Origin: Methanobacterium sp.
GTDB taxonomy: Archaea > Methanobacteriota > Methanobacteria > Methanobacteriales > Methanobacteriaceae
Assembly: GCA_003166335.1 (NCBI GenBank)
Contig: PMWA01000060.1
Span: 1-14,629 of the forward strand
Reading direction: 5' to 3'
DNA length: 14,629 nucleotides
Shown: piece by piece, positions 2,360 to 13,989 of the stretch
Layout: the number at the start of each line of letters is the position of its first letter
Position numbering within the stretch: the stretch's first letter is position 1
Made by a program: the position numbers and the translations under genes
The notes under the pieces: model-generated
The model's database searches: none
Seen by the model: only the letters and a program-made list of their open reading frames with translations
What the model was told of the DNA's origin: nothing

Positions 2360-3121
2360 ATGGGGAAACTGATAGAACTGCCAAAAAAAGGCAAAGCACT
2401 GATAATCACAGATATACATGGTAATCTAACCGATTTCAATAAATACATGAATATTTGGGATCAGTTCAAAAACAGAGATAACCATCTAATTCTTACCGGA
2501 GATTTTATCCATGCTATGGGCCGTGAAAACGATAGATCCATTGAAATCATGGAATCCGTACAATACCAGTGTGAAAACTCCGAAAATTTCCATGTTTTAC
2601 TGGGAAACCATGAATGGTCAACCATAACGAAAAAATCTGTTTATAAGGCAGGTATAAACCAAACACTCAATTTTGATGAACTCTTGAAAGATAATTTTGG
2701 TCAAAGTTACAATAAAGAACTAGAAGAATATGTGGAATTTCTTAAAAAACTTCCCATAGCAGTTAGAACAGCAAACAAAATTTTTATAAGTCATGCTGGA
2801 CCTCCCAGAAATATTAAAAGCTTAGATAAAATAAATCACATCACCGATAAAGGATACAACGAGAACCCACCATTATTCCAGATCCTGTGGAATAGATTTG
2901 AAGACTACACCGAAAATGATCTGAAATCTTTTCTAAAAACTGTGAACTGTAAAATGATGATTGTAGGTCACACACCAGTTGATGGAATTAAATTAGTATA
3001 TAAAAATCAACTAATAGTCTCATCCAGTTACAGTAAAGGAAAAAAAGCTTACGTTGAATTAAATCTTAAAGAAGATATAAAAAATAGTCAAAACCTCTTA
3101 AAAATGGTTAAATATCTATAA
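2360..3121 (+). CDS. Calcineurin-like metallophosphoesterase, possible Ser/Thr protein phosphatase
   Basis: Motifs DIHG, GDFIH, LLGNHE, SHAG and VGHT appear in the canonical order. The 3' end overlaps the convergent FHA gene by 6 nt (3116-3121). Confidence 0.88.
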   Translation: MGKLIELPKKGKALIITDIHGNLTDFNKYMNIWDQFKNRDNHLILTGDFIHAMGRENDRSIEIMESVQYQCENSENFHVLLGNHEWSTITKKSVYKAGINQTLNFDELLKDNFGQSYNKELEEYVEFLKKLPIAVRTANKIFISHAGPPRNIKSLDKINHITDKGYNENPPLFQILWNRFEDYTENDLKSFLKTVNCKMMIVGHTPVDGIKLVYKNQLIVSSSYSKGKKAYVELNLKEDIKNSQNLLKMVKYL

Positions 3122-3673
3122 TTGACCCACCTTATTATATTTAATATGCAGGGATTTAGCTACAACAATTTCATCCCCATCATTTAGCCTGTACTTCTTG
3201 GATCCATGTAATTCTTCTCCATTTAAAGTAGTACCATTTTTAGTTTTAAGATCTTGTAGGAAAAAACAGCATAAATAACAACAGTCCTTCTTAGTGATCT
3301 TAAAATGATCTCTTCCTATAAAATAAAGTTCATCTGAAGGGATTACTCCTAAAAAATCCTCTCTACCCATAATTTTTTCAGCATCTTTAACAATTATATT
3401 GTTATTATTTGGAAGAATTAATTTAGCCACTGTTCCACTATTATCAGCACACTGAGTCTGAGTAGTCTTTAAAATCTTAGATTGAGGTGATAATTTCTTA
3501 TAAATAAATTCTATTAAAAATCCAGCTATTATAGCCATTATCAAAGCTAAAACAATTTCCTGAGTTTGATTCTGAAGCAAACCGAAAATACCATTTAATT
3601 TCCAAATCACAGTTGCAAAAGCACCTACAATCAACATCATCACTATGAGACCAATAAGTTGCTTTCTAGACAT
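3116..3673 (-). CDS. Membrane-anchored FHA domain protein (2 N-terminal TM helices)
   Basis: Two hydrophobic segments, then FHA motifs MGREDF, IGRDHF, QDLKTKNGTTLNG and L.DGDEI. Confidence 0.85.
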   Translation of the reverse strand: MSRKQLIGLIVMMLIVGAFATVIWKLNGIFGLLQNQTQEIVLALIMAIIAGFLIEFIYKKLSPQSKILKTTQTQCADNSGTVAKLILPNNNNIIVKDAEKIMGREDFLGVIPSDELYFIGRDHFKITKKDCCYLCCFFLQDLKTKNGTTLNGEELHGSKKYRLNDGDEIVVAKSLHIKYNKVGQL

Positions 3674-3813: not shown

Positions 3814-5586
3814 TCATTTTTTCAATTTTTTCATAACCATCGTATATCCTTGACGATATCCACTGCGATATCCATCTCTGTAAAGTTTTAGACATTCTTT
3901 TTCCTTAAATTCTTCTAAACAATCCTTCTTAGCAGCTTCATATCCCTCTTCATAAAGATCTTCAACTTGTGGGTGAGATAAAATCATTGTTAAGAATTGT
4001 TTATTTATAATTTCTTGGGATGTTTTATCTGATTTTACCGCATTTGAAGGTATATTATCTGATTTAACTACATCTGAAGGCATTTTATCTGATAAATATG
4101 GATCTTCAACGTTTTTAGGCTGGAATCCAACACCCATTTCCGCTTTCATCAAATCTGTGGAATCACTGATAGAAGCCACCTTCACCAAAGACTTATCACC
4201 TTCATAAGACTTACTGTTCGGGGTGGATTCATCATCAAAAATTCTATTATTAGTTCTACCAGGGAAAGGATCCCCTTCATCACCAGCTAAGTCTTTCTGT
4301 ACTTTATCAACATCCTCTTCCTTAAGCAATACAGTCATATCCCTTTGAAGATCCTCTCTTCCATCAGATTCCTTTACTGTAAGGAAAAAATGCTGTGGAT
4401 TGTAGTTAGGAGCCTCTAAAACGCATACGCTCTCATCAACATGCCAAATCATAAGACCACTAGCAGGTAAATTCTGTTCAAATCCCTTCTGTTGACGGTT
4501 TTCCAATAGAAAATACTCTTCACCATCAGAACCATCAACCTCTAGTTTGTAAATATCTTTATCAGAATCCATCACCGCTGATATTTCATAGGGATTAGGG
4601 ATTTCTTTTAAAATCTTCGGTTTAATCCAGCCCAGATGCATCTTACACCAGGCGCAGGGATGGGCGGGTGTTCTACCATTGTCAATATGATCACCGATAG
4701 CCATTAAACACCAGCTTCCCACCACTGGAGAATAACCTTCCTTATATAGGTCTGGTAATCCCAGAAAATGCCCTACTTCATGACAGAAACAGCCTAGATC
4801 ATCCGCAGGAAGTTCTGGTATCAAGCAATATCTTTTGGCATATATTCCTTCTTGTACTTCAATGGGTTCTGCTAATCTATCCTTGTGAGGTCGTATATAA
4901 TTAATATTAAGTTTGGTATCTAATCCTTCACCAGCATATATCACTATCAGGATTTCAATTTCCCCATCCTTAGCAATTTTTGAAAAATCAAAACTACCAC
5001 TATCTTTAGCCTGTAAAACAACTTCTGAAATCAGATTTTGAGCTTTTGGGAAATGTCCATCAATCTCATACTTATCAACGTAATCTGATAAGTTATTTGC
5101 TGCTGAAAACCATTCGTTGTTGACTTCTCCATTTATGTCAAGCTGATTCCAGGAGGCTTCTGAATAATAGTCCCTCATACTATGGTTAGAGCCTTTAGAA
5201 AAGAGTAAATCTTTAAAATAGTCGGGTTTAATGGAATGTTTTCTGTCTTTAAATTCTGTTAAAAGAACCAGAGCGTTTTTAGTGCCGACAACCGGGTCTA
5301 TTTTTTTACAGGGACCCGTGGAAATGGGAGCAGCTTTTAAAGAACCATATTTAGTAATAATTTCCTGTTTACGATCTTCCATTCTCTGTTCCAGATTCTG
5401 CCAATTCTGCTGCAGTACATTATAAGTTTCCAGATCCAACCCACCCCTCGACTCGAATTCCGCTGGATCTACTCCTTTCTGGAGTAAATTTTTGGTTTGT
5501 ATTATCTTTGCATATACTGAAGGACGAAGATGCCTTTCCTGAGAATTTTCACCATTATTTTTTAAAAACAATTCATAAACCCCCAC
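3814..5586 (-). CDS. M6 family (immune inhibitor A-like) zinc metalloprotease with a C-terminal GYxxGYxxGY helix; no evident signal peptide
   Basis: Metzincin motif HEVGHFLGLPDLY, Met-turn WCLMAIG, and M6 motifs SMRDYY.E.S, PAHPCAWCK..LGW, EYFLLENRQ..GF and GLMIWHVDE. GTG start. Confidence 0.9.
   Translation of the reverse strand: MGVYELFLKNNGENSQERHLRPSVYAKIIQTKNLLQKGVDPAEFESRGGLDLETYNVLQQNWQNLEQRMEDRKQEIITKYGSLKAAPISTGPCKKIDPVVGTKNALVLLTEFKDRKHSIKPDYFKDLLFSKGSNHSMRDYYSEASWNQLDINGEVNNEWFSAANNLSDYVDKYEIDGHFPKAQNLISEVVLQAKDSGSFDFSKIAKDGEIEILIVIYAGEGLDTKLNINYIRPHKDRLAEPIEVQEGIYAKRYCLIPELPADDLGCFCHEVGHFLGLPDLYKEGYSPVVGSWCLMAIGDHIDNGRTPAHPCAWCKMHLGWIKPKILKEIPNPYEISAVMDSDKDIYKLEVDGSDGEEYFLLENRQQKGFEQNLPASGLMIWHVDESVCVLEAPNYNPQHFFLTVKESDGREDLQRDMTVLLKEEDVDKVQKDLAGDEGDPFPGRTNNRIFDDESTPNSKSYEGDKSLVKVASISDSTDLMKAEMGVGFQPKNVEDPYLSDKMPSDVVKSDNIPSNAVKSDKTSQEIINKQFLTMILSHPQVEDLYEEGYEAAKKDCLEEFKEKECLKLYRDGYRSGYRQGYTMVMKKLKK
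4021..4093. repeat. 30-bp in-frame tandem repeat (about 2.4 copies) in the protease linker
   Basis: tgttttatctgattttaccgcatttgaagg / tatattatctgatttaactacatctgaagg / cattttatctgat, encoding SDKMPSDVVK-SDNIPSNAVK-SDKT. Confidence 0.85.
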
Positions 5587-5589
5587 TTC

Positions 5590-5630
5590 TAAATGATTTA
5601 TAGTTATTTACATGTACTATAAATTATTTA
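5590..5630. promoter_or_regulatory. Inverted repeat (15-bp arms, 14/15 match, 11-nt spacer) directly upstream of the protease start
   Basis: taaatgatttatagt (5590-5604) pairs with actataaattattta (5616-5630). It contains a minus-strand TTTATA TATA-like element. Confidence 0.45.
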
Positions 5631-5683
5631 TTATTTCAATGCTTTTTTTGAATTAAATAAATATTTTTTTGGATGAAATGTAG

Positions 5684-5697
5684 TAATTACGTAATTA
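5684..5697. promoter_or_regulatory. Perfect 14-bp palindrome in the divergent intergenic region; candidate operator
   Basis: TAATTACGTAATTA lies roughly midway between the protease start (5586) and the small-protein start (5788). Confidence 0.35.
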
Positions 5698-5787
5698 ATA
5701 TTCATAATATTAAGTATTAAAGAATAAAAACGAAAAATTTAATACTTTAAACTTTTAAATTAAATGTCAATTAAAAGGGGGATTTAG

Positions 5788-6039
5788 ATGGAAGAAAAAA
5801 AATCTAGAAAAGAAGAATATCTGGAAGGATATGAAGATGCAAAGCAAGATTGTATCGATAAAATGAAAGATGAAAAGTGTGTGGAAAGTTATGTAGATGG
5901 ATATAAAGCCGGTTATAGTGATGGTTATAAATCTGCTATGGAAGATATGAAAAATATGATGGGGCAAATAACACCAGAAACAAAGCAAAAATTGATGGAA
6001 GAAGGGGGAGCTCAGCCTCAATGGGGATGGCCTTGGTAA
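5788..6039 (+). CDS. 83-aa protein homologous to the M6 protease C-terminal helix, with a GG|AQPQWGWPW tail; candidate peptide precursor or protease partner
   Basis: G-rich RBS (aagggggatttagATG). Residues 11-55 align without gaps to the protease C-terminus with 21/45 identities, which supports it being a real gene. Confidence 0.85.
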   Translation: MEEKKSRKEEYLEGYEDAKQDCIDKMKDEKCVESYVDGYKAGYSDGYKSAMEDMKNMMGQITPETKQKLMEEGGAQPQWGWPW

Positions 6040-6269
6040 TTAGTTTACCTTTTAAGGATTTATGATTAAAATAAATTAAATAGATTTGTATTTGTAATTG
6101 TAATGGAAAATATGTCAAAGTCTAGAGTGTATAATCTAAGAATCTTAAGAGAGAGCTAAAAATTAATCTAGTAATCATTGAATCAATTATTGCCCGGATT
6201 TACTTTTCATTACAAAATTATATTTCTTTATAAAACTTCATCATTTGTGTGAAATGAGGGGTAATTTAA

Positions 6270-8525
6270 ATTTTAAAATCTAACAAATTTAAAATTTTTT
6301 TTATTATTACTTTATTTATATTACCATTATTCCTATCCTTAAATCTTGTTTCTGCTCAAGATAATACTAATAATAATACTAAAGTCTTATTTGATGAAAC
6401 ACGTCCAGATCTAGGAACATTATACACTATTTATAATATGGGAACGTACGGATCATCCAGTTTTGCAACTCTACTAGAACAAAATGGTTATAGTGTTTCC
6501 CGGTTAACAAACGGACCAATCACCCCTGAAAAACTGAATGGATATAATGTTTTAGTACTTATGGCCCCATATGGTAATTACACTGATGCTGAAGTTAATA
6601 CAATTAAGGAATTTGTAAACAACGGTGGTGGACTATTTTTAGTTGGGACTAACTGGGGTGATGTAGATGGTAATCAGAGTTTTGCAATCAATAAAATTGC
6701 GGAAAGTTTTGGGGTAAATTTTGCAAATAATTCAATAGTTACTGATGACCAAAATAATATTTTTGCTCCTACTTTCGTGACTATCAACAATCTTACACCA
6801 AATCCCATAACCACAAACGTTTCTTCGTTTTATTATCTCCAGGGAACTTACATAGAAAATCCCGGACCATCTAATGTTGTTGCTTATACAAGCGCTAATG
6901 CATGGGGTGATCAAGGTTTTACCACCCCCCAAGGAACTACAGCAAGTAACAGTATCAAAGATCCTGATGAAACAGGTGGTCCTCTATCCGTAATTTCTGA
7001 AATGAATTATGGAAAAGGGAAAATAGTTTTCATGGGTGCTGCTGGATCTTTTATTAATGCAATGATTTATAGGAGCGATACCTGGAAATTAGAATTAAAT
7101 ACTGTAAATTGGCTGGCTAATCGCCCTGCGCCAACTAACTACCAACCTGCCGGGTTGATCTCCTTAAATTTATTAGGATACCAAATTGTGGGAATGATTC
7201 TATTATCTTTGATATTATTTTCAGGATTATTTATTAAAATTAGAAGGGATAAGAAATTAGGGGATCCGCAGACATTTAAAACCATTAAAAATTGGAAATT
7301 TAATGCTTTAATAGTAACCAATGCATTTTTTGGTGTTCTAGCTGGTATCCTGTTTATTCCAATCAATTTTTTCTTATATAATATTACATTATTCTCAGTT
7401 TACGATCCTAATTTAGGTTATACACTGATAATAACCGGAGCATTATTTTTGTTCTTTATAGGGGTGATATTATTCAACCTTATCGCCCGACAAAGGATGT
7501 TGGTGAAATATTCCTATTACACAATTGTCCTAATCCTCTTTTTTGCTGGTTTAACAGTTATTTTAGGGGACATATTTAGTTTCCCCTTAATGCAGATATT
7601 CACTTTTGGTAGTTTGATTCTTTTAATTCCCTTTGCCCTTAATATATGGATCCACAGAAATTATGGATCCAATCTGATTATTGAAGGTAAAGAATTTGAT
7701 CGGCTGAAAAAATTATCAAGTAAATCGTTACCTTATGAGCTTCAACCATTTTTTACTGATTCAGCTTATATGGGAGAAGGTGGATTTGGACGAGTTTTCA
7801 AAGCCATTAATAAAAAAGGTGAACAAGTAGCTTTGAAAATACCAAAGAGTTTTGATAAAAGGTCTGAGAGAACATTTATCACTGAGGTGTCCAATTGGAG
7901 TCATTTAGATCATCCTAACATTGTAAAACTAATTGGATATAAAATTCTCCCTATTCCGTATATTGAAACAGAGTTCTGTGAAGGAAAGTTAGAGAAAGGT
8001 ATGAAATCTCTCCAAGAGGCTGTATCAATAGTGTATGAAATTGCGAAAGGATTAGAATATGCACATAATAAAAACATCATTCATGGAGATGTAAAAATCT
8101 CTAATATTCTCATAAAAAATGGAGTTTACAAAATATCCGATTGGGGTTTAAGTAAACTAAAAATTGATGAATCAGTGACATTATCAGGTGCAACACCTTC
8201 TTATGCAGCTCCCGAGCAGATATCTCAAGAATTTGGTAAAGCTGATGAAAGAACCGATATTTATCAACTGGGTAATGTTTTTTATGAACTTTTAACGGGC
8301 AGATTACCATTTGAAGGTGATATATCACAGATTTACAGTTCCATACTCACCACTCAACCCATACAACCTGCAGAAATAAATTCCAACTCACAGCCTGTAA
8401 ATGATATTATCATGAAATGTCTAAACAAAAATAAAAATAGCCGATATTCCTCTATGGGAGAATTGATTAAAGAATTAGAGAAATATAGACCTGCTGATAA
8501 AACATTAATGTTTAAAAACAGTTAA
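6270..8525 (+). CDS. Receptor-like membrane Ser/Thr (Hanks-type) protein kinase: signal peptide, extracellular DUF4350/GldG-like alpha/beta domain, about 6 TM helices, kinase domain. Start uncertain (track gives 6438)
   Basis: Kinase motifs GEGGFGRV, VALK, HGDVKISNIL, DWG, YAAPEQ and DIYQLG. The frame is open from 6270 and encodes KSNKFK + hydrophobic stretch + VSA|QD and 'KVLFDETR' before Met 6438. The extracellular domain family is my recognition, not a search result. Confidence 0.88.
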   Translation: MLKSNKFKIFFIITLFILPLFLSLNLVSAQDNTNNNTKVLFDETRPDLGTLYTIYNMGTYGSSSFATLLEQNGYSVSRLTNGPITPEKLNGYNVLVLMAPYGNYTDAEVNTIKEFVNNGGGLFLVGTNWGDVDGNQSFAINKIAESFGVNFANNSIVTDDQNNIFAPTFVTINNLTPNPITTNVSSFYYLQGTYIENPGPSNVVAYTSANAWGDQGFTTPQGTTASNSIKDPDETGGPLSVISEMNYGKGKIVFMGAAGSFINAMIYRSDTWKLELNTVNWLANRPAPTNYQPAGLISLNLLGYQIVGMILLSLILFSGLFIKIRRDKKLGDPQTFKTIKNWKFNALIVTNAFFGVLAGILFIPINFFLYNITLFSVYDPNLGYTLIITGALFLFFIGVILFNLIARQRMLVKYSYYTIVLILFFAGLTVILGDIFSFPLMQIFTFGSLILLIPFALNIWIHRNYGSNLIIEGKEFDRLKKLSSKSLPYELQPFFTDSAYMGEGGFGRVFKAINKKGEQVALKIPKSFDKRSERTFITEVSNWSHLDHPNIVKLIGYKILPIPYIETEFCEGKLEKGMKSLQEAVSIVYEIAKGLEYAHNKNIIHGDVKISNILIKNGVYKISDWGLSKLKIDESVTLSGATPSYAAPEQISQEFGKADERTDIYQLGNVFYELLTGRLPFEGDISQIYSSILTTQPIQPAEINSNSQPVNDIIMKCLNKNKNSRYSSMGELIKELEKYRPADKTLMFKNS

Positions 8526-8565: not shown

Positions 8566-8979
8566 TTGGGAATGAACCTGAATAAAGGCGTAATTCTAGG
8601 AATTGCTGGTGCTATTACTGTTTTTATTTTTATTCTAATAATTATTTTATATATTGATTCAGATTTTGATCAACAATTAATTTATCAAGTGGATAGTGGA
8701 GTGCCTGCTGATAAATTGATCCCTCAAATTGATAAAGAAACTGAAGAACTACAGATGAATGCATTAAAAAGTTACGAATCTAATGTTATAAATAACAATC
8801 TGGGAGGAAATGCTAGTAATTATGATTATTATACACAAGTGTATCAAAATGAGAATAAAACTATTTCAGAATATGAAAATACTCAGAAAGAATTTGCTAA
8901 TCGGGAGATAAGCAAAGAACAATTTGAACAGGATATTAAATCACCAAAAGAATTTATACAACTAATGAATTTAAATTGA
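8566..8979 (+). CDS. Hypothetical protein with one N-terminal TM anchor and a helical N/Q/E-rich soluble part
   Basis: 137-aa ORF 40 nt after the kinase, with AGGGGA RBS upstream. The start may be TTG 8566 or ATG 8572. Confidence 0.75.
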   Translation: MGMNLNKGVILGIAGAITVFIFILIIILYIDSDFDQQLIYQVDSGVPADKLIPQIDKETEELQMNALKSYESNVINNNLGGNASNYDYYTQVYQNENKTISEYENTQKEFANREISKEQFEQDIKSPKEFIQLMNLN

Positions 8980-9046: not shown

Positions 9047-10303
9047 ATGGAAATATTTATTGATGTGGGAGGAAAACCCGGCATAGAATGTGGTGGTTTC
9101 TGTGAGTTTTGTTTTTATAAAAAAGTGGATTTTAAAAAATTAGAATCACTCTCCATAGGATGTATAAATTGTCCACCCAACCAGATCGGATGTGATTATT
9201 GCCATAACACAGTTACAAGAGTAAAAAATGATTTTAAACCTCTTTCTCAAGTTTTAAATGACTTTAAAGAAAAATTTAATAAACATTTACGAGCAGGTTC
9301 GTTAAATTATAAAGAACTAAATGTTATCATAGGTGCGGGTGCTGACGTATTCAACTATCCACACTTATACGAACTTGTTTCAACATTAAAAGAGTATGAA
9401 TTACGATTACATTTAGGTTATACTAGTGGAAAACCAATAGATAATGACCATATGGCCGAAAATCTTATTTCATTAGGAGTTGATGAAATAAGCTTTTCTG
9501 TGTTTTCAACAGATCCTGAAAAGAGAAGAAAGTGGATGAATGACAATACTCCTCAGAAGTCACTTGAAGGTTTAAAGATATTTTGTGAAAATATTGATGT
9601 TAACGCCTCTGTTGTAGTTATTCCCGGAGTAAATGACAAAGAAGAACTATTCCAAACCTGTGTCAACATGGAAGAATGGGGTTTAAAATCGTTCGTTTTA
9701 AGGAGATTCGCTAATTTTAAAAATCAGGGTTTAATATTGAACAACAAACCCATAATAGAAGGAGTAAATCCTCTATCGTATGAAGAGTTCCAAGAATTAG
9801 TGCGTGAAGTAGCTCGCGAATTCTCTTTCAAAGTTTTAGGATACCCCTTTTGTGACCCCCAAAATGATTTTCCCTTCGCGATCTCGAGAGTTAAAAATAG
9901 GGATTATCTGGAGAAATTACCGGATATTAAATCTGAAGCTACCATTATAACGAGTAAGTTAGCTGCACCTTATTTAGAGAGGATATTTGGGGTAATTGAT
10001 GAATTTAATTTGGTTAATATTGTTAGTGTGGATAAAGATATTGCTGATTTGATTACTCATGAAGATTTGGAGTCTGTTAATCTAGGTAATGTCAAGAGAA
10101 ACGTCATTATTCCGAGTGGAGCATTGGTTCATGATAAAAAGGCTGAAGAGATTTTAAATAAGGATGGTAAAGTTAGATTAGTTGTTAGAGGTCCTTATGT
10201 GTTAACAAATCCATATTACAGGGATGAATTTTATAAAGAAGAATTATTAAACTTTGAATTAAATTCTTTTACAGCTTTAATAGATAAAATCAATTCATTT
10301 TAA
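9047..10303 (+). CDS. mmp10: Mmp10-family (methanogenesis marker 10) cobalamin-dependent radical SAM methyltransferase; divergent, probably a paralog
   Basis: N-terminal DVGGKPG..CGGFCEFC (CX3CX2C), iron-loop CINC..GCDYC, HLGYTSGK, RFANF..QGLILNN.PII, KDIADLIT and VRGP all match the Mmp10 family. GGAGA RBS upstream. Confidence 0.85.
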   Translation: MEIFIDVGGKPGIECGGFCEFCFYKKVDFKKLESLSIGCINCPPNQIGCDYCHNTVTRVKNDFKPLSQVLNDFKEKFNKHLRAGSLNYKELNVIIGAGADVFNYPHLYELVSTLKEYELRLHLGYTSGKPIDNDHMAENLISLGVDEISFSVFSTDPEKRRKWMNDNTPQKSLEGLKIFCENIDVNASVVVIPGVNDKEELFQTCVNMEEWGLKSFVLRRFANFKNQGLILNNKPIIEGVNPLSYEEFQELVREVAREFSFKVLGYPFCDPQNDFPFAISRVKNRDYLEKLPDIKSEATIITSKLAAPYLERIFGVIDEFNLVNIVSVDKDIADLITHEDLESVNLGNVKRNVIIPSGALVHDKKAEEILNKDGKVRLVVRGPYVLTNPYYRDEFYKEELLNFELNSFTALIDKINSF

Positions 10304-10577: not shown

Positions 10578-10621
10578 GATAGGTGTGTACTATACACACC
10601 TCACCCCCCCTAATATATTAA
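10578..10621 (+). ncRNA. Candidate small RNA 2 (AGGTGTGT/ACACACCT hairpin plus C-rich tail); alternatively a micro-ORF MCTIHTSPPLIY (10583-10621)
   Basis: Perfect 8-bp stem (10581-10588 with 10594-10601) at the expected start distance from the TATA box. The 3' end is unknown and may run through to 10755. Confidence 0.35.
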
Positions 10622-10675
10622 TTGAAGATTTCAAACAAAAAACTAATAATTTTATGTTCGAAATCTTAAAAAAAG

Positions 10676-10755
10676 CGGCTTTCAGAGGGGACTTCACACG
10701 GTCCAACATCACACCTCCAAAAATTTGTTTACTCTGGAAGCTGAACCTTTTTTTT
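10676..10755 (+). ncRNA. Candidate structured RNA: long stem with an anti-SD-like loop, followed by T8
   Basis: cggctttcagag (10676-10687) pairs with ctctggaagctg (10732-10743), extended by ggac/gttt. The four G-U pairs work only on the + strand. The loop contains ATCACACCTCC. Confidence 0.4.
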
Positions 10756-11086
10756 AATTTTATAAAAATAATAATTTTACAAACCTTAATGAAAAATTCT
10801 TTTAATAATAAAATTCTCATTTTAATGAACTTAAATTATTTATCTACATTATATGTCAAGTAGTATAAATAAATAAGGAAAATCAAAGCTGCTACACTAA
10901 ATTCATTTTCTATTTATTATAAAATTTTTCAGATTATTTAACACATAATTATCAACCTCCTTATCAATATATTAAAAAAAATGTTTTCCTGGAAGAAAAA
11001 TATTTTTGCTTAAAAAGAGTAAATATAATTTTTTATAAAAAAAGTTTGAAATAGTTTTTCCAACATAAATATAAATTAGGATAAAT

Positions 11087-13674: not shown

Positions 13675-13697
13675 AAAAAAAAAAAATATTTTTTTTT
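13675..13697. terminator. A12-TA-T9 tract between convergent genes; candidate bidirectional oligo-T terminator
   Basis: Gives a T-run on each strand between the 34-aa ORF and the 13696-13989 ORF. Confidence 0.35.
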
Positions 13698-13989
13698 ATA
13701 CTTCACTTTCTAGGCATAAATTACTTTCGTTTATTGGAATTTTCCAAAGATATCCTACTTTTTTGGGTTTTATTTTTTTATTTTTCCCTTTCTTGTTTTC
13801 TAAGTTAGCTTCACTTCCATCCCATGTTTTCACGGTTTTGTTTAGATATTGTGCTATTTTTTCATTATATTTTCTCGTTCCAATGGTGTAGCTATCGCCT
13901 TCATTAAGAATATAGCTAATTCCATCACCATTTTCACCGATTATCTTTGAGATTTCTACAATTTTTTTGGAGAAGGTTATAGACATCAT
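13696..13989 (-). CDS. Hypothetical protein, 97 aa
   Basis: Protein-like composition and higher GC than the flanks. No recognisable motif and no clear RBS. Confidence 0.5.
   Translation of the reverse strand: MMSITFSKKIVEISKIIGENGDGISYILNEGDSYTIGTRKYNEKIAQYLNKTVKTWDGSEANLENKKGKNKKIKPKKVGYLWKIPINESNLCLESEV

What the first reader, a model, noticed from the sequence alone, without database searches (positions are those of the whole stretch)
3817..5955. The 83-aa protein is a free-standing copy of the adjacent protease's C-terminal helix
Seen: protease tail YEEGYEAAKKDCLEEFKEKECLKLYRDGYRSGYRQGYTMVMKKLK (within 3817-3954, minus strand) aligns to small-protein YLEGYEDAKQDCIDKMKDEKCVESYVDGYKAGYSDGYKSAMEDMK (5818-5952, plus strand). 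There are 21/45 ungapped identities, including both Cys (CX8C) and all four GY units. The GY region is Arg-rich in the protease and has more acidic residues in the small protein. Known: GxxxG-periodic helices (FliH/Yae1-like) mediate helix pairing. Inference: this is a like-with-like docking module that recruits the small protein as substrate, inhibitor or adaptor, possibly with a Cys-based metal or disulfide link.
Basis: partly seen in the sequence, partly recalled or inferred. Interest (0 to 1): 0.85.

Follow-up and report, generated by a model that had tools for sequence, protein, structure and literature searches.

The report
Protease tail copied in neighbouring mini-protein
A methanogen's metalloprotease ends in a small two-helix, glycine/tyrosine-rich hairpin, and the 83-residue protein encoded next door carries a related copy of it; the gene pair recurs across related methanogens, so the two probably work together, but whether they bind each other is not shown.

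Summary
The last 45 residues of the 590-aa M6 metalloprotease (3814-5586, minus) and residues 11-55 of the 83-aa protein (5788-6039, plus) share 21/45 ungapped identities (BLASTP E 5e-13). They are the only two copies in the 2.49-Mb genome.

The module is a helix-turn-helix hairpin with G-x3-G spacing, not a single helix. In the protease it hangs on a ~55-residue low-confidence linker.

The divergent gene pair recurs in 33 of 201 sampled genomes of the family, in 9 genera. It always sits in a Ser/Thr-kinase / FHA / phosphatase cluster, and the small gene lies just upstream of the kinase on the same strand.

The small protein also has a conserved Trp-rich C-terminus. The tail hairpin is basic and the small hairpin neutral to acidic in most pairs.

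The CX8C pair is not conserved. Three lineages keep the small protein beside a tail-less protease, and one keeps it with no protease.

Docking is a reasonable analogy to Yae1-Lto1 (PMC4523923) but unproven. No Pfam or NCBIfam family covers the module. The bare GYxxGY motif is widespread in unrelated proteins.

The parts
3814..5586 (-). M6-family metalloprotease gene, 590 aa. It has no N-terminal hydrophobic signal visible in the sequence. HEVGH is at residues 269-273.
   Evidence: Pfam Peptidase_M6; TIGR03296 160.4 bits against 110.8; AF2 mean pLDDT 89.4, core 12-490; 4yu6 InhA2, E 1.7e-20. H269, E270 and H273 are invariant in 106 homologues.
3817..3954 (-). C-terminal hairpin module of the protease (residues 545-590). 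It consists of helix 1 (Y-x-EGYE-x-AK-x-D), a turn, and helix 2 (LY-x-x-GY-x-x-GY-x-x-GY) with a basic end (KKLKK).
   Evidence: alignment A1; H546-563, H566-589; net charge +6.
3955..4116 (-). Low-confidence, Ser/Thr/Lys-rich linker (residues about 491-544) between the catalytic body and the hairpin. It contains one weakly predicted helix, 521-536.
   Evidence: pLDDT 43-62 over residues 491-545, with segments below 50 at 504-520 and 537-545.
5587..5787 (.). AT-rich 201-bp divergent intergenic region shared by the protease and small-protein genes. GGGGGA lies 7 nt before the ATG of the small gene.
   Evidence: sequence. In one search, RNA-library contigs of X17 and X18 cover both genes but not bins 5580-5767. 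This is only a weak hint.
5788..6039 (+). Gene of the 83-aa small protein. It has an N-terminal hairpin module, a short helix, and a Trp-rich C-terminus.
   Evidence: It is conserved as an open frame in 9 genera. Metatranscriptome contigs cover it.
5818..5952 (+). Hairpin module of the small protein (residues 11-55). Small residues sit at every fourth position: S34, G38, G42, G46, A50.
   Evidence: H7-26, H29-59. G46 is invariant and G38, Y39, K40, G42, D45 are at least 90% conserved in 48 family members.
6001..6036 (+). C-terminal motif EGGAQPQWGWPW (residues 72-83), predicted unstructured.
   Evidence: W79 and W83 are invariant in 16 orthologues. A Trp lies within the last 8 residues in about 40 of the short database hits. 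pLDDT is 52-57.
6438..8525 (+). Membrane Ser/Thr protein kinase with a DUF4350-type N-terminal domain and a Pkinase domain at 442-672. It lies directly downstream of the small gene on the same strand. Its signal-peptide-like N-terminus lies upstream of the first canonical start codon.
   Evidence: The order small gene, then optionally FHA, then kinase on one strand holds in all 30 loci with enough sequence.
3116..3673 (-). Protein with an N-terminal hydrophobic segment and an FHA domain, downstream of the protease on the same strand.
   Evidence: FHA, E 9e-10. Synteny.
2360..3121 (+). Calcineurin-like metallophosphoesterase, the conserved flank of the cluster.
   Evidence: Metallophos, E 3.3e-18. 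Synteny.

Best explanation
The protease tail and the N-terminal two thirds of the 83-aa protein are paralogous copies of one small helix-turn-helix module. Its second helix carries a glycine zipper (G-x3-G-x3-G, each Gly followed by Tyr). I think the two hairpins most likely pair with each other into a pseudo-symmetric four-helix bundle, basic tail against neutral or acidic small copy.

That pairing would tether the small protein to the catalytic body through the tail's ~55-residue flexible linker. The working end of the small protein would then be its conserved, unstructured, Trp-rich C-terminus. Once tethered, that end could reach the active site as a pseudo-substrate plug or a substrate. 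Alternatively it could serve as a handle for a third protein of the surrounding kinase / FHA / phosphatase cluster, as Lto1's C-terminal Trp does.

Shown:
- the homology of the two modules;
- the hairpin predictions;
- the flexible linker;
- the conserved gene pairing;
- the charge asymmetry;
- the conserved C-terminal Trp residues.

Inferred:
- that the two hairpins bind each other;
- what the Trp end does;
- any control by the kinase.
For: (1) The similarity is specific: 21/45 identities, E 5e-13, and only these two copies exist in the genome.

(2) Both copies are predicted as confident helical hairpins. The protease's copy lies behind a low-confidence linker, which is the anatomy expected of a tethering module.

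(3) The divergent gene pair is found in 33 of 201 sampled family genomes (34 loci, 9 of 27 genera). The protease orthologue is in 37 genomes and the small protein in 34.

(4) Module architecture agrees between partners in 28 of 33 classifiable loci: 21 full/full and 7 helix-2-only in both. No half-size small protein sits beside a full tail.

(5) The helix-2 core has mean net charge +2.9 in tails and -0.8 in small proteins. The tail is the more positive partner in 24 of 28 pairs.

(6) Wherever a tail has Cys at the first Cys column (4 of 19), its partner has Cys there too (7 of 19 overall). The hypergeometric p is 0.009 ignoring kinship, and there are at most 3 independent lineages.

(7) There is an experimental precedent. 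Yae1 and Lto1 heterodimerise through their shared GX3 motifs, and Lto1's C-terminal Trp binds a third complex (PMC4523923, passages read).

(8) Both genes lie in contigs of four peat metatranscriptome runs.
Against: - No binding evidence of any kind was obtained.
- The tail is missing from proteases that still have the small gene next door in G208, G217 and G102.
- G068 keeps the small gene with the kinase but without any protease.
- The small gene is linked to the kinase at least as tightly as to the protease: 30 of 30 loci with enough sequence.
- Own-partner module identity is barely above cross-genome identity: 0.334 against 0.316, permutation p 0.033, 19 pairs. Rate variation alone could inflate that difference.
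- The architecture agreement needs only 2 changes in the small protein and 4 in the tail on the protease tree, and all 20 full/full rows form one clade. It therefore amounts to very few independent events.
- Adjacent genes are gained and lost together, whatever their function.
- The locus is often decayed: frames are broken in G002, G004, G101, G160, G162a, G175 and G187.
Confidence: 0.4

Rival explanations
1. Decoy or shared-partner model (a 'microprotein'). Both hairpins bind the same third surface, or each forms homo-oligomers. The partner could be a site on the kinase, the FHA protein or the membrane. The free copy then competes with, or caps, the protease tail instead of docking on it, and so titrates the protease's localisation or oligomer state.
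For: Paralogous modules normally keep the ancestral binding preference. The small gene sits in the kinase operon in 30 of 30 loci with enough sequence. It survives without the protease in G068 and beside tail-less proteases in G208, G217 and G102. FliH-type GX3 helices are described as homodimer elements (abstract of PMC2674601; discussion passage of PMC4523923).
Against: A +6 hairpin is a poor candidate for self-pairing. The consistent opposite charge trend (tail more positive in 24 of 28 pairs) fits hetero-pairing better than competition for one site. No third partner is identified.
Confidence: 0.27
2. Shared ancestry only. The small protein is a regulator or substrate of the Ser/Thr kinase pathway. 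Its likeness to the protease tail is a relic of a partial duplication between neighbouring genes and has no present functional meaning.
For: Synteny with the kinase is perfect in the loci examined. G068 lacks the protease. Own-versus-cross identity shows almost no concerted evolution. DNA identity of the two modules is only 85/135, so there has been no recent exchange.
Against: Both copies have been kept as confident hairpins with the same invariant Gly/Tyr positions across 9 genera. There is no conserved Ser or Thr in the small protein. Helix 1 is shared by tail and small protein in the one clade where the tail has it, which points to a later exchange or to joint retention.
Confidence: 0.2
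3. Peptide-precursor model. The small protein is a ribosomal peptide precursor, with the helical part as leader and the Trp-rich end as core. The M6 enzyme is its processing protease and recognises the leader through the look-alike tail.
For: The layout is an N-terminal helical region plus a short conserved aromatic C-terminus. A protease and a radical SAM gene are nearby.
Against: The radical SAM protein is an equivalog-level match to Mmp10, the methyl-coenzyme M reductase arginine methyltransferase (492 bits against a cut-off of 350). No transporter or modification enzyme is conserved in the cluster. No signal for export is seen. The C-terminal motif varies in length and sequence.
Confidence: 0.05

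Closest known systems
Yae1-Lto1 deca-GX3 adaptor pair of the eukaryotic cytosolic Fe-S assembly pathway (PMC4523923)
   Same: Two different proteins share a Gly-every-fourth-residue helical motif, and in that system the motif mediates their heterodimerisation. One partner (Lto1) also ends in a conserved Trp that binds a third complex. Yae1_N is the most frequent sub-threshold Pfam match of the small-protein family: 24 of 48 members at E<=1, best 0.0014.
   Different: Here there are only 3-4 GX3 steps instead of ten. Each Gly is followed by Tyr, and the motif sits in a two-helix hairpin. One partner is a protease tail. The setting is archaeal and sits in a kinase/FHA cluster. No link to Fe-S assembly is seen. 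No member reaches the Pfam gathering score (window protein 13.5 against 27.5 bits).
FliH / YscL glycine repeats AxxxG(xxxG)mxxxA (PMC2674601)
   Same: The same periodic small-residue pattern is present: SxxxGxxxGxxxGxxxA in the small protein. A database source named a close homologue 'FliH'. There are weak NCBIfam FliH matches (E 6e-4, 19 bits).
   Different: The scores are far below the cut-offs (19 against 200 bits). There is no FliH C-terminal ATPase-binding domain. The protein has 83 residues. Methanogens have no bacterial flagellum (from my own knowledge).
Immune inhibitor A (InhA, MEROPS M6) metalloproteases
   Same: The catalytic domain, the HExxH motif and the fold match.
   Different: The archaeal enzyme shows no signal peptide and lacks the C-terminal domains of InhA2. 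Instead it carries the flexible linker plus the GY hairpin. By a C-terminal regex, 60 of the 86 best-scoring homologues carry such a tail, against 1 of the remaining 34 more distant homologues, of which the named ones are bacterial.
MicroProteins: small single-domain paralogues that regulate larger proteins through the shared interaction domain (concept recalled, no paper read here)
   Same: A free-standing copy of one interaction-type module of a larger multidomain protein is encoded beside it.
   Different: The concept comes from eukaryotic transcription factors. Here the small protein has its own extra conserved C-terminal motif, and no dominant-negative effect has been tested.

Membership tests
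Peptidase M6 (immune inhibitor A family): the protease | Match to the curated family models above their cut-offs | tested here: met
   Pfam PF05547 scores 51.4 bits against 22. NCBIfam TIGR03296 scores 160.4 bits against 110.8.
Peptidase M6 (immune inhibitor A family): the protease | Zinc-binding HExxH with a downstream conserved Asp | tested here: met
   HEVGH is at 269-273. H269, E270 and H273 are invariant and D279 is at least 90% conserved in 106 homologues.
Peptidase M6 (immune inhibitor A family): the protease | Fold like a solved M6 enzyme | tested here: met
   Foldseek top hits are 4yu6 and 4yu5 (InhA2 zymogen), E about 1e-20, TM (query) 0.55-0.56.
Yae1_N / deca-GX3 proteins: the small protein and the tail | Pfam PF09811 at its gathering score | tested here: not met
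   Small protein: 13.5 bits against 27.5, E 0.06. Tail: E 0.29. Of 48 family members, 24 match at E<=1, best 0.0014.
Yae1_N / deca-GX3 proteins: the small protein and the tail | About ten consecutive G-x3 steps | tested here: not met
   There are three consecutive Gly steps (G38, G42, G46), flanked by S34 and A50, plus G14/A18 in helix 1.
Yae1_N / deca-GX3 proteins: the small protein and the tail | The motif mediates heterodimerisation of the two motif-bearing proteins | not testable with these tools
This needs a binding experiment.
Yae1_N / deca-GX3 proteins: the small protein and the tail | Conserved C-terminal Trp on one partner (Lto1-like) | tested here: met
   W79 and W83 are invariant in 16 orthologues. 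This is a resemblance in sequence only; its partner is unknown.
FliH / YscL | Match to curated FliH models | tested here: not met
   NF005198 scores 19 bits against a cut-off of 200. NF004270 scores 17.3 against 180.
FliH / YscL | C-terminal ATPase-binding domain and a flagellar or injectisome gene context | tested here: not met
   The protein has 83 residues and no further domain. Its neighbours are a protease, a kinase, an FHA protein and a phosphatase.
MicroProtein-type regulator | Small protein consisting essentially of one module homologous to a module of a larger protein | tested here: met
MicroProtein-type regulator | Acts by binding through, or competing for, that module | not testable with these tools

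The most novel reading that the evidence does not exclude
Methanobacteriaceae carry a previously undescribed kinase-linked proteolysis switch. A cytoplasmic M6 metalloprotease is governed by an ~80-residue partner that zips onto the protease's tethered GX3 hairpin. The partner then presents its Trp-rich C-terminus as a plug or as a recruiting handle. The membrane Ser/Thr kinase, the FHA protein and the phosphatase of the same cluster decide when the pair is engaged. This would be an archaeal counterpart of Yae1-Lto1-type 'like-with-like' adaptor pairing, used for protease control.
Probability: 0.12. Interest if true: 0.75.

Novelty: new variant of a known kind. Interest (0 to 1): 0.5.

Why it matters
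GX3 (glycine-zipper) helices in soluble proteins have few worked examples: FliH dimers and the Yae1-Lto1 adaptor. Here the motif is built into a compact hairpin and used twice, once as the flexible tail of a protease and once in a free mini-protein. The two are kept side by side in nine genera of methanogens, inside one of the few conserved Ser/Thr-kinase/FHA clusters of these archaea.

If the two copies pair, this would be a simple and testable case of protease regulation by a paralogous mini-protein. It would also give a first handle on what this kinase cluster controls.

If they do not pair, the result still defines an unannotated small-protein family (no Pfam or NCBIfam model) and a clade-specific protease appendage.

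The literature searches found no description of either. One search returned 0 papers. One search returned only the Yae1-Lto1 paper. One search returned 5 papers, all general reviews or unrelated by title and abstract start; I saw the listing only.

Tried and rejected
- Complex prediction of protease residues 518-590 with small-protein residues 1-60, each with its alignment. The score was 0.19 against a mark of 0.32, so there is no verdict. It counts neither for nor against binding.
- Word-based homologue search with the small protein found only 2 proteins.
- The protein atlas gave only chance-level hits, 0.78-0.80.
- Foldseek of the small-protein model against PDB gave no match at E<=10.
- A profile search of the module against PDB sequences gave nothing significant. 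The best hit, E 0.022, is a low-complexity DRYG stretch of eIF4B.
- Earlier notes of this scan held nothing near the site.
- Concerted evolution or gene conversion as the cause of the likeness is rejected as a recent process. DNA identity is 85/135, and own-versus-cross identity is 0.334 against 0.316.
- A general Cys-metal or disulfide link is rejected because the Cys are not conserved. A lineage-specific site in this genome cannot be excluded.
- In the RNA-contig laying, the lack of cover over the intergenic bins in X17 and X18 is not evidence of anything on its own.
- Two literature searches failed on term format and were re-sent in corrected form.
Full report
WHAT IS THERE

The window comes from a Methanobacterium-type archaeon. 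Database sources name close homologues of the protease 'M6 family metalloprotease domain-containing protein [Methanobacterium sp.]'.

ORF 3814-5586 (minus) encodes a 590-aa protein.
- It passes Pfam Peptidase_M6 (51.4 bits against 22).
- It passes NCBIfam TIGR03296 (160.4 bits against 110.8).
- It has HEVGH at 269-273, with H269, E270 and H273 invariant in 106 homologues.
- Its AlphaFold2 model has mean pLDDT 89.4. The model's best PDB match is the InhA2 zymogen 4yu6 (E 1.7e-20).

ORF 5788-6039 (plus) encodes an 83-aa protein with no Pfam or NCBIfam family at threshold.

THE OBSERVATION

BLASTP aligns protease residues 545-589 with small-protein residues 11-55. The alignment has 21/45 identities, 34/45 positives and no gaps, with E 5e-13.

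A six-frame search of the window's whole assembly (2.49 Mb) finds the module in these two places only. The tail scores E 7.2e-11.

At the DNA level the two modules share 85 of 135 positions. This is an old duplication, not a recent copy.

ANATOMY

The module is a hairpin, not one helix.
- In the small protein AlphaFold2 gives helices 7-26 and 29-59 at pLDDT about 90. A short helix follows at 63-71, and the C-terminus 72-83 is low-confidence.
- In the protease the catalytic body (12-490) is confident. Residues 491-545 are low-confidence (43-62). The hairpin is 546-563 / 566-589 at pLDDT 73-89. The tail is therefore a small folded unit on a long flexible tether.

Helix 2 carries Gly at every fourth position, each followed by Tyr. 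In the small protein the pattern is S34, G38, G42, G46, A50. This is the AxxxG(xxxG)mxxxA pattern described for FliH (abstract of PMC2674601).

CONSERVATION OF THE PAIR

I searched 201 genomes of the same family with three queries: a profile of the module, a profile of the whole small protein, and the protease.
- A protease match at E<=1e-10 occurs in 38 genomes. That is 37 after setting aside G135, whose only match is a 1106-aa frame at 29% identity.
- By my reading of the tables and loci, the small protein with its Trp-rich end occurs in 34 genomes.
- In 33 genomes (34 loci, because G162 has two) the two genes are divergent neighbours. These lie in 9 of the 27 genera sampled.

Exceptions:
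- G002 has an N-terminally truncated protease (430 aa) and no small gene or kinase.
- G151, G181 and G199 have only protease fragments. I did not examine G151 further.
- G068 has the small gene but no protease within the 6.5 kb fetched.

Several loci are decayed. The small gene is frameshifted in G004. The protease is split in G101, G160, G162a and G187. Both genes are broken in G175. Some of these breaks may be assembly errors.

CONTEXT

The pair always sits in one cluster. Upstream and divergent lie the protease and often an FHA-domain membrane protein, flanked by a calcineurin-like phosphoesterase.

Downstream of the small gene on the same strand lies a membrane Ser/Thr kinase with a DUF4350-type outer domain. 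The kinase follows directly in 23 loci and after the FHA gene in 7. This holds for all 30 loci with enough sequence (together for the window).

The small gene is therefore linked to the kinase as tightly as to the protease.

THE FAMILY OUTSIDE THESE GENOMES

A profile of 31 modules was searched against 1.84 billion representative proteins. It gave 151 hits at E<=1e-3 and 14 at E<=1e-10. By a rough script plus reading, the 150 listed hits divide as follows:
- About 40 are 50-110-aa proteins with the module at the N-terminus and Trp near the C-terminus.
- About 12 are C-terminal pieces of M6 proteases.
- About 98 are unrelated proteins with several GYxxGY-type repeats, namely secreted proteins and 500-1000-aa phage-like proteins.

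Of the 14 best hits, 11 belong to the first two classes.

The bare GYxxGYxxGY stretch is thus a common repeat. The two-helix module, however, is specific to the small proteins and the protease tails.

Among the 120 listed protease homologues, 61 have a GY tail by a C-terminal regex. That is 60 of the 86 best-scoring and 1 of the remaining 34 more distant ones, of which the named ones are bacterial.

TESTS OF COUPLING BETWEEN THE TWO COPIES

(a) Architecture. Of the 34 loci:
- 21 have a two-helix small module and a two-helix tail. This count includes G004, with its frameshifted small gene, and G006, whose tail is cut by the contig end.
- 7 have only helix 2 in both partners (G026, G080, G084, G096, G097, G125, G162b).
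- 2 are full/half (G130, G187).
- 1 is full/none (G208).
- 2 are half/none (G217, G102).
- 1 cannot be classified (G175).

I built a protease tree of 32 loci plus 3 bacterial outgroups. G006 and G175 were left out, and tail columns were not specifically removed. All 20 full/full rows form one clade (SH-aLRT 94). The fewest changes are 2 for the small protein and 4 for the tail. The agreement is real but rests on very few events.

(b) Identity. In 19 full/full pairs, own-partner identity is 0.334 against 0.316 for cross-genome pairs (permutation p 0.033). This is weak, and rate heterogeneity can inflate it.

(c) Charge. The helix-2 core averages +2.9 in tails and -0.8 in small proteins. The tail is the more positive partner in 24 of 28 pairs, positive in 24 of 28, and the small copy is zero or negative in 26 of 28. 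Kin are not independent, but the trend spans genera.

(d) Cysteines. The C-x8-C pair is not a family feature.
- The first Cys is in 7 of 19 small modules and 4 of 19 tails.
- All 4 of those tails have a Cys-bearing partner (p 0.009 ignoring kinship, at most 3 lineages).
- The second Cys is in 8 of 19 small modules and 3 of 19 tails.
- Among the close relatives, only the window's protease has both.

EXPRESSION

Contigs from four peat metatranscriptome runs, from at least three studies, cover the protease gene and the small ORF. One example is X18 record 24, at 5799-5964. X15 record 4 and X16 record 12 span the whole small gene.

DNA carry-over in RNA libraries cannot be excluded.

The small gene has a GGGGGA stretch 7 nt before its ATG.

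INTERPRETATION

The best-documented analogue is Yae1-Lto1. Two proteins share a GX3 motif that is needed for their heterodimer, and Lto1's C-terminal Trp binds a third complex (PMC4523923, passages read).

The small-protein family gives Yae1_N as its most frequent sub-threshold Pfam match: 24 of 48 members at E<=1, none at the gathering score. It works like that motif at the level of sequence logic, but it is not a member of the family.

I rate hetero-pairing of tail and small protein as the single most likely mechanism, at about 0.4. The Trp-rich end would act as plug, substrate or handle.

The tail-less and protease-less exceptions, together with the perfect kinase synteny, keep two rivals alive. 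One is a shared third partner or decoy role (about 0.27). The other is likeness by descent only (about 0.2). A peptide-precursor reading is unlikely (about 0.05), because the nearby radical SAM gene is Mmp10.

VERDICT

This is a new variant of a known kind (GX3 helix modules, mini-protein paralogues). It defines an unannotated small-protein family and a clade-specific protease appendage. Interest is moderate, because binding, the heart of the claim, remains untested.

Noticed in passing
window 6228-6440: The kinase's signal-peptide-like N-terminus (...KIFFIITLFILPLFLSLNLVSAQDN...) is in frame with ORF 6438-8525. It lies upstream of the first ATG/GTG/TTG, behind a stop codon. A short frame starting at an ATG near 6255 ends just before a run of T. 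This could be a frameshift, an assembly error in the T run, or a non-canonical start.
   Followed up: partly
window 9047-10303 (+): The radical SAM protein is an equivalog-level match to Mmp10, the methyl-coenzyme M reductase arginine methyltransferase (492 bits against a cut-off of 350). It is a conserved flank of the cluster in several relatives but is probably unrelated to it.
   Followed up: no
L035 1246-1473 (G014): A second, 75-aa paralogue of the small protein has a degenerate first GY unit but an intact PPEIRKQMEE...WPLPW end. It lies between two Mmp10-like radical SAM genes about 4 kb from the main pair.
   Followed up: no
L065 and L066 (G162): One genome carries two complete clusters of protease, small protein and kinase. 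One has two-helix modules and the other has helix-2-only modules. On the protease tree they fall in different clades, which suggests old paralogous systems or a transfer between genera.
   Followed up: partly
L051, L052, L055-L058, L063 (genus g13): A separate family of ~65-aa proteins (...ERLREFSLELFKEGFKLGFKKGY...) matches only helix 2 of the module. It lacks the Trp-rich end and is not next to an M6 protease.
   Followed up: no
proteins P0137, P0141, P0146, P0172, P0194 and others: These are large proteins (500-1000 aa) that begin MVIYT(R/K)EEK.LIIPEG and carry 5-14 GYxxGY-type repeats. They look like a phage or virus structural family using the same repeat. Their origin is unknown.
   Followed up: no
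window 8566-8979 (+), 13696-13989 (-), 10585-10863 (+): These three ORFs (137, 97 and 92 aa) have no Pfam family at E<=0.01. The 137-aa ORF also has no NCBIfam match.
   Followed up: no
L043 (G002): In this relative the protease is cut to its C-terminal 430 aa, with an intact GY tail. The small gene and the kinase are missing, and an Mmp10-like gene abuts the break. This looks like one deletion that removed the promoter region, the small gene and the kinase.
   Followed up: partly
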